From Octopus vulgaris (lineage: Eukaryota): a DNA stretch of 64,000 nucleotides. The notes beneath the pieces are model-generated. The model saw only the letters and a program-made list of their open reading frames with translations. It was not told the origin of the DNA and searched no databases. The DNA is taken from the NCBI GenBank assembly GCA_951406725.2, contig OX597825.1:14260001-14324000 (forward strand), in the 5' to 3' direction. A program made the translations under genes and the position numbers. Shown here piece by piece: positions 3,868-54,700 of this stretch. Position 1 is the first letter of the stretch; every line of letters starts with the position of its first letter.

Positions 3868-3967
3868 NNNNNNNNNNNNNNNNNNNNNNNNNNNNNNNNN
3901 NNNNNNNNNNNNNNNNNNNNNNNNNNNNNNNNNNNNNNNNNNNNNNNNNNNNNNNNNNNNNNNNNNN
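3868..3967. other. Assembly gap (100 N)
   Basis: Run of n. Confidence 1.
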
Positions 3968-21929: not shown

Positions 21930-22615
21930 GATAATTGCTCCTGTTACCGCTTCCTATTCTCTTAGAGTAGTACCGACCATCTCGATTTCCAAAATGTCCG
22001 ACACTATCACGGTGACGCCGTCCGCATACGCCGACACAAAACTTCCCCGCCCTTCGAAACCTCCAGCTTCCGCAGTAATGGCCTGAGTGGCAGTATGTAG
22101 ATGAGGGTTGAGAGTGGGCATCCTTGACGAACTGAACGTGCGATATTAAATGATTTCGAGAGGTGACCATTTACTTTGACAACCGAACAGATGTCGCTGT
22201 ACATTGCAGCATTCCAGCCCCTGAACACGGGACCTAAATCAACCGCCTTCAGGACAGCCTCCAAGTACAGATTGTCAACCCTATCAAAAGCTTTCGATTA
22301 ATCCAAATAGATCAGGGCCCCACTCATGCCGGGTTCTTTACCAACACTCTCTATGATGTCTCGCGTGTGGTGGAGGTTGTCGTGTATAGTTCTGCTGGGG
22401 ATAACGCAAGTCTGCGTATCACCCACCAGTCTGTCAACGTACAAGCGCCACCCTCTTTGCAAACTCCTTGGCCAAAATTTTGTAATCTGTATTTAGCAGT
22501 GTTATCGGCCTAAAATTATCAACAATGTCCCCTTTGTTCGGATCCTTTCTTAGTAGCGTCTCCAGACCTCGGCTCACAGATCCAGGTGATCTCCCATTCT
22601 GCTACCAGTTGCCGT
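21930..22615 (-). pseudogene. L1/Tx1-clade LINE reverse transcriptase fragment
   Basis: VDNFRPITLLNTDYKILAK, LD*SKAFDRVD, SVRQGCPLS, SAYADGV; stops and frameshifts. Confidence 0.9.
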
Positions 22616-27749: not shown

Positions 27750-28302
27750 AGCACTCCGTCGGTTACGACGATGAGGATTCCGGTTGATCCGAATCAACGG
27801 AACAGCCTGCTCGTGAAATTAACGTGCAAGTGGCTGAGCACTCCACAGACACGTGCACCCTTAACGTAGTTCTCGGGGATATTCAGCGTAACACAGAGAG
27901 TGACAAGGCCGGCCCCTTTGAAATACAGGTACAACAGAAACAGGAAGTAAGAGTGAGAGAAAGTTGTGGTGAAAGGAGTACAGCAGGGATCACCACCATC
28001 CCCTGCCGGAGCCTCGTGGAGCTTTTAGGTGTTTTCGCTCAATAAACACTCACAAGCTCTTGTGTTTGATATGACTACTATCACGCTTTTCTGGTAATTA
28101 TACTAATGTGGCAGCGGTTTAGATTGTAAACAGAAGCAGATCCCGATAGGATGAAATGCGAAATCGAAACCACGATCCTATGACCGCGAGTCCGCTGCCC
28201 TAACCACTGGGCCATTTCGCCGATAGGATGAAATGGGAATCGAAACCACGATCCTATGACCGCGAGTCCGCTGCCCTAACCACTGGGCCATTTCGCCTCC
28301 AC
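27750..28302 (-). mobile_element. SINE-C copy interrupted by templated insertions and head duplication
   Basis: Matches 26485-26866; TSD ttcgcatg(t/c)tgt on both sides. Confidence 0.9.
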
Positions 28303-52907: not shown

Positions 52908-53145
52908 TTATTTCTTATTTCTTTATTGCCCACAAGGGGCTAAACATAAAGGGGACAAACAAGGACAGACAAACGGATTAAGTCGGTTATATCGACTCCA
53001 GTGCGGAACTGGTACTTAATTTATCGATCCCGAAAGAATGAAAGGCAAAGTTGACCTCGGCGGAATTTGAACTCTGAACGTAACGGCAGACGAAATAGCG
53101 CTAAGCATTTCGGCCGTCGCGTTAACGTTTCTGCCAGCTCGCCGT
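52908..53145 (-). mobile_element. SINE-A full copy
   Basis: Family match. Confidence 0.92.
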
Positions 53146-53359
53146 CTTTTAATCTTATTGCTCCCGAGTTACTCCAAGCCTCCTCGGTAAGAAAAAAGGG
53201 GGCTGAGTGGAATCCTGTAGGAAGTATTTCATGGTGTGTAGTGAAGCTCGCTTGTGATGAATGGTTTTTGCGTGAGCATGTGACGAGTGCCTACTTCTTT
53301 AGCGCTGGAACTACCCATGTCTTGTGAGTGAATTTGGTAGACGGAAACTGTGTAGATGC

Positions 53360-53878: not shown

Positions 53879-53932
<54 letters not shown>

Positions 53933-54083
53933 AATTAAGGACTGAACACGAAAAGTGGACAGTCAACATGCTAGATATAGACGTCAAATCGCCATTCACC
54001 ACAAAAGATTATGTTCTCAGATCAAACTCAACACAAAACCATAGCAATAAACAAGTGAAAAATATACGAAATAAAATAATTAC

Positions 54084-54148
54084 CCATGTACTAACTTAGT
54101 TTCAGCTGTTATTTTCTGCAAGGAAAACTGCAGCCATCATCAGCATGG
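54084..54148 (-). ncRNA. Type I hammerhead ribozyme (left arm copy)
   Basis: Mirror of 54365-54429. Confidence 0.82.
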
Positions 54149-54364
54149 TCCGTTATAAATGTAATTTGCTGGACTAGATGCATCTACCAAATTCACTCAC
54201 AAGACATGGGTAGTTCCAGCGCTAAAGAAGTAGGCACTCGTCACATGCTCACGCAAAAACCATTCATTTGAAAGATATATTCAAATGTAATAGGCTGAAC
54301 TCCATGCACGCGATATTTCGGTATCGTGTTTGCATCTAGTCCAGCAAATTACATTTATAACGGA

Positions 54365-54429
54365 CCATGCTGATGATGGCTGCAGTTTTCCTTGCGGAAA
54401 ATAACAGCTGAAACTAAGTTAGTACATGG
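54365..54429 (+). ncRNA. Type I hammerhead ribozyme, canonical core
   Basis: CCATG CTGATGA t GGCTG cag TTTTCC ttgc GGAAAA taa CAGCT GAAA CTA agt TAG TA CATGG. Confidence 0.85.
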
Positions 54430-54667
54430 GTAATTATTTTATTTCGTATATTTTTCACTTGTTTATTGCTATGGTTTTGTGTTGAGTTTGATCTGAGAAC
54501 ATAATCTTTTGTGGTGAATGGCGATTTGACGTCTATATCTAGCATGTTGACTGTCCACTTTTCGTGTTCAGTCCTTAATTGGTATATATAAATATTTTAA
54601 TCTTCGGATTCTTTTTTAATATGCTAGACCACTGGTCTTAATTGATAAATATCAATTTCTACCCTTA

Positions 54668-54700
<33 letters not shown>

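What the first reader, a model, noticed from the sequence alone, without database searches (positions are those of the whole stretch)
53931..54582. Young inverted twin-hammerhead element
Seen: 252-bp arms with one substitution noticed, each containing a complete HHR (CCATG/CATGG stem I, CUGAUGA, two-segment helix II, GAAA, 4-bp stem III, GUA), pointing outward into TA repeats. Established: PLE insertions often carry an inverted, 5'-truncated pLTR. Inference: a recent insertion, so an active autonomous partner may exist. A transcript from either strand would contain one ribozyme plus its antisense, giving competition between self-cleavage and a long dsRNA hairpin.
Basis: partly seen in the sequence, partly recalled or inferred. 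Interest (0 to 1): 0.8.

Follow-up and report, generated by a model that had tools for sequence, protein, structure and literature searches.

The report
Young Penelope stump with captured flank
This is a short, recently inserted fragment of a high-copy repeat, likely the end of a Penelope-like jumping gene in an octopus-type genome, carrying two mirror-image hammerhead RNA motifs (a known layout, cutting untested) and, between them, an exact reversed copy of 85 bases of nearby host DNA that was likely copied in while the element landed.

Summary
The 252-bp arms (one mismatch) and a type I hammerhead motif in each are real. The element is larger than reported. A 411-bp 5'-truncated copy of a high-copy repeat (54265-54675) runs about 90 bp past the right arm to the true (TA)n target. 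An inverted, tail-less partner (53931-54182) precedes it. Between them lies an exact inverted 85-bp copy of host DNA from 589 bp upstream. Inverted truncated partner, one-sided tail, (TA)n target and opposite-strand hammerheads 100-700 bp apart are all published Penelope-like (PLE) features. The hammerhead resembles those of the Hydra clade, but no ORF was found, so clade membership is untested. The insertion looks young (one CpG change; roughly 0.3-0.6 My, wide interval), and its junctions were not seen in three other DNA runs. The proposed ribozyme-versus-hairpin switch is unlikely: the antisense arm is transcribed first, the duplex is about -500 versus -15 kcal/mol, and the motif is predicted to need a same-strand dimer. 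Verdict: new member of a known kind; the local templated filler is a modest mechanistic extra.

The parts
53257..53341 (+). Donor of the filler: part of an old, diverged SINE-like host repeat, 589 bp left of the element
   Evidence: 100% inverted match to 54183-54267; other window copies of this repeat are 73-86% identical over at most 75 nt; low, single-copy-like depth of 17-51 in three DNA runs. The SINE label is recalled, not from a call.
53879..53930 (.). (TA)26 tract, left side of the target site
53931..54182 (-). Inverted, 5'-truncated partner copy (252 bp), lacking the tail
   Evidence: its outer end lies near a common 3' terminus of the family (TA-run loose ends behind 54595 in 15 and 9 contigs of X5 and X6)
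54084..54148 (-). Type I hammerhead motif, left copy; predicted cut after 54089; carries the private CpG transition that shortens distal helix II by one pair
54183..54267 (-). 85-bp filler, exact inverted copy of 53257-53341; 12-nt palindrome across its left junction (54175-54186), 3-nt microhomology (CAT, 54265-54267) at its right junction
54265..54675 (+). 5'-truncated sense copy (411 bp) of a high-copy repeat; likely PLE 3' end/pLTR
   Evidence: 934-1955 contigs per DNA run lie on the 526-bp stretch; high depth starts at about 54265 and runs to 54675; loose ends show the family continues upstream of 54265
54283..54356 (+). Long predicted hairpin with UUCG loop upstream of the hammerhead; the inner end of the inverted arm (54331) lies in its 3' strand
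   Evidence: -30.6 kcal/mol for 54265-54364, z -4.7, 0 of 200 shuffles as stable
54365..54429 (+). Type I hammerhead motif, right copy; predicted cut after 54424
54583..54675 (+). One-sided 3' extension (tail-like, about 90 bp), starting with (TA)4
   Evidence: high depth in all four runs; contigs run across 54582 in X1, X5 and X6, though none listed has 31 nt on both sides; TA loose ends behind 54670
54676..54700 (.). (TA)12.5 tract, right side of the target site

Best explanation
This is a 745-bp composite (53931-54675) of a truncated high-copy repeat, an inverted shorter copy of it and an exact inverted piece of nearby host DNA, and it is likely one recent, dead-on-arrival insertion of a Penelope-like element into a (TA)n tract. 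Likely mechanism (inferred): the element's endonuclease cut both strands in the TA tract, and both ends primed reverse transcription at two start sites about 90 nt apart. This gave a 411-nt cDNA with the tail and a 252-nt cDNA without it, the shorter one stopping inside a stable RNA hairpin. The two cDNA ends lacked complementarity. They were bridged by 85 nt copied from host sequence 0.6 kb away, using a 3-nt microhomology at one side and a 4-nt snap-back palindrome (or slippage) at the other. The two hammerheads are passengers of the duplicated pLTR. A read-through RNA would form a 252-bp duplex and would not self-cleave; only a transcript started inside the spacer would expose a ribozyme, and it is predicted to be weak as a monomer. 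SHOWN: arms, motifs, exact filler, repeat boundaries, high copy number. INFERRED: PLE origin, twin priming, order of events, age. UNTESTED: cleavage, transcription of this locus.
For: Anatomy. Family boundaries, two 3' termini ending in TA runs, upstream continuation, low depth of the filler against 10^3-10^4-fold higher summed depth on the repeat (not a copy number). Published PLE layout of an inverted 5'-truncated copy plus a one-sided tail: PMC8557442, PMC3846280 (which also reports palindromes at inverted junctions and host DNA captured between pLTRs). Both-strand cleavage and extension, two RT start sites and AT-rich targets in vitro: PMC11167929. Opposite-strand hammerheads 100-700 bp apart: PMC4209133. 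Hydra-clade elements have a (TA)n preference in 26 of 27 rows of the sheet, and hammerheads with a palindromic stem III and often a 1-nt centre. Within the 65-nt motif, 2 of the 11 substitution sites listed occur (54385, 54418), both at unpaired positions and none in the core. A self-dimer folds as a double hammerhead at -45.0 kcal/mol against 2 x -19.4. Youth: one CpG transition, 0.3-0.6 My (95% range 0.01-3 My) under a borrowed rate. Templated local inserts under 250 bp are known for L1.
Against: No RT or GIY-YIG ORF is linked to the repeat: none in its six frames and no PLE domain among 137 window ORFs (the only RT hit is an unrelated LINE-type fragment). 0 of 4 probes matched the published Naiad/Chlamys/Hydra supplement; of 5 probes, one matched once in unrelated context. 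Rfam has no hit. The monomer MFE is not the hammerhead fold (4.6 kcal/mol higher, p about 1e-4), and the base of helix II is G-U, not the canonical G10.1-C11.1. The tail (about 90 bp) is longer than the 30-40 bp described. No target-site duplication can be read in TA tracts. Neither filler junction was seen in X1, X5, X6 or X3, so the composite rests on this assembly alone. L1 templated inserts typically come from within 15 bp, not 589 bp.
Confidence: 0.8

Rival explanations
1. The repeat is a non-autonomous hammerhead mini-element (animal retrozyme type) that borrows PLE enzymes, not the truncated end of an autonomous PLE. The insertion mechanism would be the same.
For: No ORF in 411 bp; strongly structured RNA; contigs identical to the right copy at depth 66-109 in run X3, guessed to be RNA; animal retrozymes are proposed PLE derivatives; one X6 contig returns from 54675 to 54544, a partial tandem.
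Against: Retrozymes are defined by head-to-tail monomers of 150-450 bp. No joint from the 3' end back to the 5' part was listed, copies end in TA runs, and the family continues upstream of 54265 for an unknown length.
Confidence: 0.3
2. The filler and inverted arm were added by host double-strand-break repair (polymerase theta or MMBIR type), or by RT jumping to a local nascent transcript, rather than by PLE twin priming on DNA. This changes who copied the 85 bp, not what the element is.
For: Microhomology and snap-back junctions are generic end-joining signatures (my knowledge; listings). The donor is far for an RT-to-DNA jump.
Against: The arm's outer end falls at a natural family terminus in a TA tract, as expected of a second priming event and not of random repair.
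Confidence: 0.3
3. Assembly artefact: a fold-back or chimeric read created the second arm and the filler.
For: Junctions not seen in 4 of 4 runs; the donor runs unbranched through a 225-nt contig in X1 and X5; the window is scaffolded (one 100-N gap); PLE inverted structures trouble assemblers.
Against: A fold-back would mirror flank as well. Here three switches fall at a family terminus and at microhomologies, and the arms differ by a CpG transition. The runs need not be the source individual, only 76-80% of X1 and X5 was read, and contigs drop rare variants.
Confidence: 0.07
4. One reading: a switch in which self-cleavage competes with a long dsRNA hairpin.
For: Each strand does carry one motif plus its antisense. 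The right copy alone keeps stems I and II (pair probabilities 0.5-1.0).
Against: The antisense arm precedes the motif on both strands; duplex about -500 kcal/mol and stem I probability 0.0. Metazoan PLE hammerheads cleave poorly and as dimers, or only with protein. The insertion is too young and apparently unfixed for a selected function.
Confidence: 0.04

Closest known systems
Insertion architecture of endonuclease-bearing Penelope-like elements (PMC8557442 Fig. 2 legend; Pen2a_Av and Pen1_Av in PMC3846280)
   Same: 5'-truncated sense copy preceded by a shorter inverted copy, a 3' extension at one end only, a palindrome at the inversion junction, and host DNA between pLTR copies.
   Different: The extension is about 90 bp rather than 30-40 bp; no ORF is present; the captured DNA is short, exact, inverted and traceable to a donor 589 bp away, which the passages I read do not describe.
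Hydra-clade PLEs (Penelope-1_HM, Penelope-13_HM, Hydra-1_Obim; PMC8557442 supplement files S1, S2, S7)
   Same: (TA)n target; type I hammerhead near the 3' end with the same extended core and a palindromic stem III; Penelope-13_HM has an inverted 5'-truncated copy with the motif on both strands; the clade occurs in Octopus.
   Different: By eye, Hydra-1_Obim has another hammerhead and 3' end. Helix II here is longer and two-segmented, and the motif lies 153/246 nt from the two 3' termini. The ORF was not seen.
Dual opposite-strand minimal hammerheads of Schistosoma PLEs (PMC4209133)
   Same: Two motifs 100-700 bp apart on opposite strands; long helix II, short helix I, extra nucleotide after position 9, palindromic helix III, predicted dimer dependence.
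   Different: Helix III here has 4 bp, and the base of helix II is G-U instead of G-C.
Animal non-LTR retrozymes (PMC7229834; bioRxiv 10.64898/2026.07.22.740005)
   Same: Non-coding, AT-rich, type I hammerhead, high copy, a few hundred bp.
   Different: No head-to-tail monomer array here; inverted arrangement.
L1 twin priming and templated insertions (bioRxiv 10.1101/2024.08.27.596794; PMC11702581)
   Same: Inverted 5' part and a copied genomic piece under 250 bp inside the insertion.
   Different: Different element class; the arms here overlap by the whole 252 bp; the donor is 589 bp away rather than typically within 15 bp.

Membership tests
Type I hammerhead ribozyme | Core CUGANGA, GAAA and NUH with stems I, II and III in type I order | tested here: met
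   both arms
Type I hammerhead ribozyme | G10.1-C11.1 pair and loop 1-loop 2 tertiary contact of canonical motifs | tested here: not met
   G-U at the base of helix II; no Rfam hit. G-U also occurs in listed Hydra-clade motifs. The tertiary contact was not modelled.
Type I hammerhead ribozyme | Self-cleavage | not testable with these tools
   needs an in vitro assay
Penelope-like element (EN+) | PLE-type RT with GIY-YIG endonuclease in the parent element | not testable with these tools
   no genome held; no ORF in this truncated copy
Penelope-like element (EN+) | Inverted 5'-truncated partner at the 5' end | tested here: met
Penelope-like element (EN+) | Tail at one end only (30-40 bp) | tested here: inconclusive
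   one-sided extension present but about 90 bp; linkage shown by contigs with under 31 nt on one side
Penelope-like element (EN+) | Hammerhead in the terminal repeat | tested here: met
Hydra clade of PLEs | (TA)n target and canonical hammerhead near the 3' end | tested here: met
Hydra clade of PLEs | RT-EN phylogeny or sequence match to a described member | tested here: inconclusive
   no ORF; short probes found no meaningful match; differs from Hydra-1_Obim by eye
Naiad clade of PLEs | Lack of a canonical hammerhead | tested here: not met
   a complete motif is present; Naiads lack one
Animal non-LTR retrozyme | Head-to-tail tandem monomers, each with a hammerhead | tested here: not met
   not at this locus; no full-monomer joint listed in 4 runs, which does not exclude arrays elsewhere
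Animal non-LTR retrozyme | Circular RNA intermediate | not testable with these tools
   only contigs were laid

The most novel reading that the evidence does not exclude
An undescribed, currently active hammerhead-bearing PLE family (or PLE parasite) of octopods inserts by twin priming in TA tracts. Its inverted arm tends to stop at a UUCG-capped hairpin, and the two cDNA ends are routinely stitched with DNA copied from hundreds of bases away. Each event would record the reach of the PLE integration complex and leave a perfect long dsRNA stem, a ready ADAR substrate in an animal group known for heavy RNA editing (recalled). One X1 contig (depth 6.6) shows a second inversion junction at the same arm end.
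Probability: 0.2. Interest if true: 0.5.

Novelty: new member of a known kind. Interest (0 to 1): 0.22.

Why it matters
How PLEs finish integration and make inverted pLTRs is still open (PMC8557442, PMC11167929). This young copy keeps all its junctions unmutated. It fits two priming sites and end joining through a locally templated bridge, so a genome-wide census of such junctions in this family would be a cheap test of twin priming versus self-priming. As a single locus it is an ordinary selfish-element stump, and the twin hammerheads are a by-product.

Tried and rejected
Rfam: 0 hits at gathering score; 13 hits at E<=10, none a hammerhead. Pattern scans for relatives: metagenome contigs gave 3 loci that share only 21-23 nt in 55-56% GC context, judged chance; viral contigs 0; genome contigs 0. 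Pfam on 137 window ORFs (75 aa or more, low-complexity ones dropped): 5 weak hits, all below cut-off, no PLE domain. tRNA scan: 0. Probe search of the PMC8557442 supplement: no meaningful match; 4 of 59 parts were read. The supplement of PMC13282606 was only listed, and bioRxiv supplements are closed; either might hold this family. Expression: no RNA holder on record; X3 is only guessed to be RNA, and it lacks cover at 54222-54257, which is no finding. Earlier scan findings by sequence, genome or relatives: none. A search with published PLE proteins for the parent ORF was left out, so the parent stays unidentified. Two independent insertions were rejected: there is no TA tract between the copies and they are nearly identical. 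The 85 bp as part of the family was rejected: low depth, and different upstream loose ends. Paper searches for a description of this family or of cephalopod hammerheads listed none besides Hydra-1_Obim; the library lacks most subscription papers, Repbase and Dfam.

Full report
Observation. The inverted repeat is real. Arms 53931-54182 and 54331-54582 are 252 bp each and differ at one site, 54117/54396, a G-to-A change at a CpG in the sense of the motif. Each arm contains one type I hammerhead match (right 54365-54429, left 54084-54148 on the minus strand). These are the only matches in the window to my descriptor, which hit 5 times in 40 shuffles of the 64 kb. Because the two are one sequence duplicated, this is a single independent observation, though its stems are longer than the descriptor demands. 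Rfam found no hammerhead. ViennaRNA keeps stems I and II but prefers a mispairing of the core; the drawn hammerhead is 4.6 kcal/mol above the minimum. Two copies together fold as a double hammerhead at -45.0 kcal/mol against 2 x -19.4. Cleavage was not tested.

First, 54183-54267 in the spacer is a 100% inverted copy of 53257-53341, which ends 589 bp left of the element. The donor belongs to an old repeat whose other window copies match at 73-86% over at most 75 nt, so the donor is this locus and no other in the window. Second, laying contigs of four public runs on 54150-54675 (X1, X5, X6 DNA or unlabelled, X3 guessed RNA; 4 of 24 listed runs) shows that a high-copy repeat spans 54265-54675. 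934-1955 contigs per DNA run were laid, with summed depth 10^3-10^4 times that over the unique part of the filler (51, 31, 17); the tool warns that this is not a copy number. The family continues upstream of 54265 in other copies, so this copy is 5'-truncated, with a 3-nt microhomology to the filler. Copies end in TA runs at two places, near 54595 and near 54670. The right copy is thus 411 bp with an extension of about 90 bp that the inverted arm lacks. Contigs cross 54582 in three runs, but none listed has 31 nt on both sides. The real target is the pair of TA tracts 53879-53930 and 54676-54700; no target-site duplication can be read.

Host and context. No genome is held. An unrelated RT fragment at 22010-22297 is 64% identical to an Argonauta hians protein, so the host is likely an octopod. 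137 window ORFs gave no PLE domain. Holders of the element carry four organism labels and come from 10 studies, so the family is not private to one assembly.

Age and fixation. There is one difference between the arms and none between filler and donor. Four X3 contigs match the right copy without a difference at depth 66-109, so an identical subfamily is multi-copy or expressed. With the calibration quoted in PMC13282606 (distance 0.09 = 25 My), the age is 0.3-0.6 My with a 95% range of 0.01-3 My; gene conversion between arms would bias this downwards. Neither filler junction was seen. Depth at 54150-54167 is zero in X5, X6 and X3, and the donor runs unbranched through a 225-nt contig in X1 and X5. 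This fits an unfixed insertion, but also an assembly artefact; contigs drop rare variants, the table of pieces was cut, and only 76-80% of X1 and X5 was read. I put misassembly at about 7%, because the switches fall at a family terminus and at microhomologies and no flank is mirrored.

Mechanism. Shown: the parts and their junctions. Inferred: a PLE endonuclease cut both strands in the TA tract, and both ends primed reverse transcription at two start sites, as a purified Poseidon protein does in vitro (PMC11167929). One cDNA ran 411 nt. The other ran 252 nt and stopped within a stable UUCG-capped hairpin (54283-54356; z -4.7). The ends were joined through 85 nt copied from nearby host sequence, with a 3-nt microhomology on one side and a 12-nt palindrome on the other; that side can be read as a 4-nt snap-back, or as annealing followed by a 15-nt slip. 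Whether the element's RT or a host polymerase copied the bridge, and from DNA or a local transcript, cannot be told.

The proposed switch. Because the arms point outward, a read-through RNA from either strand makes the antisense arm before the motif. The duplex is -498/-504 kcal/mol and stem I pairing drops to 0.0; the right copy alone retains it at 0.5-0.8. Opposite-strand motifs cannot form the dimer, and metazoan PLE hammerheads cleave weakly or need protein. The likely outcome of transcription is dsRNA, not competition. Transcription of this locus is untested.

Comparison. Inverted truncated partner and one-sided tail: PMC8557442. Junction palindromes and host DNA captured between pLTRs: PMC3846280. 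Dual hammerheads on opposite strands 100-700 bp apart: PMC4209133. Hydra-clade PLEs prefer (TA)n (26 of 27 rows), carry similar motifs, include an Octopus member and a case with the motif on both strands, but Hydra-1_Obim differs by eye and probes found no meaningful match. Templated genomic inserts are known for L1 (22 cases, usually within 15 bp). It therefore works like a PLE insertion, most like the Hydra clade; membership by ORF is untested, and a non-autonomous derivative remains possible (about 30%). Two earlier scan notes on other genomes reach similar readings; they are unchecked and not counted as support.

Papers seen. PMC8557442: passages, supplement parts 1, 2, 52 and 53 of 59, and term searches; its preprint: passages. 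PMC4209133 and PMC11167929: parts 1-2 of 4. 10.64898/2026.07.22.740005: part 1 of 5. PMC7229834, PMC13282606, PMC13174262, PMC11702581, 10.1101/2024.08.27.596794 and PMC3846280: passages. Others: search listings only. Searches for a prior description listed none for this family or for a traceable local filler in a PLE; repeat libraries and unseen supplements may hold it.

Verdict. Real, young and explained by known PLE biology: a new member of a known kind, interest 0.22. The exact, distant, inverted filler is the one feature worth a genome-wide census.

Noticed in passing
window 54430-54571 (+): A GT...AG stretch of 142 nt with a fair donor right after hammerhead stem I and a pyrimidine-rich acceptor just before the first 3' terminus. 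It could be a retained pLTR intron as in Penelope; no spliced joint was listed in X3.
   Followed up: partly
run X1, joint 54182 to 54308: One contig (depth 6.6, 26 nt on the short side) joins the same inner arm end to the 5' strand of the UUCG hairpin: possibly another copy's inversion junction, or a chimera.
   Followed up: no
joints 54392 back to 54358/54359 (X1, X6) and 54675 back to 54544 (X6): Family variants with a short duplication of the 5' half of the hammerhead, and with a partial tandem of the 3' end.
   Followed up: no
window 54612-54675: The last 60 nt are shared with relatives that have other upstream sequence (loose ends before 54612 in X5 and X3), suggesting sister families with a common 3' recognition end.
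   Followed up: no
window 22010-22297 (-): Decayed LINE-type RT fragment, 64% identical to an Argonauta hians protein; the basis for calling the host an octopod.
   Followed up: partly
window 28143-28297: Two 76-bp tandem copies, 97% alike, inside what looks like a tRNA-derived SINE head (recalled; ARAGORN finds no tRNA).
   Followed up: no
window 52912-53156 and about ten other places: Abundant repeat of about 240 bp (84-89% identical copies) plus a second SINE-like family, in a microsatellite-rich window in which the Pfam scan of 137 ORFs found no host gene.
   Followed up: no
window 3868-3967: 100-N scaffold gap.
   Followed up: no
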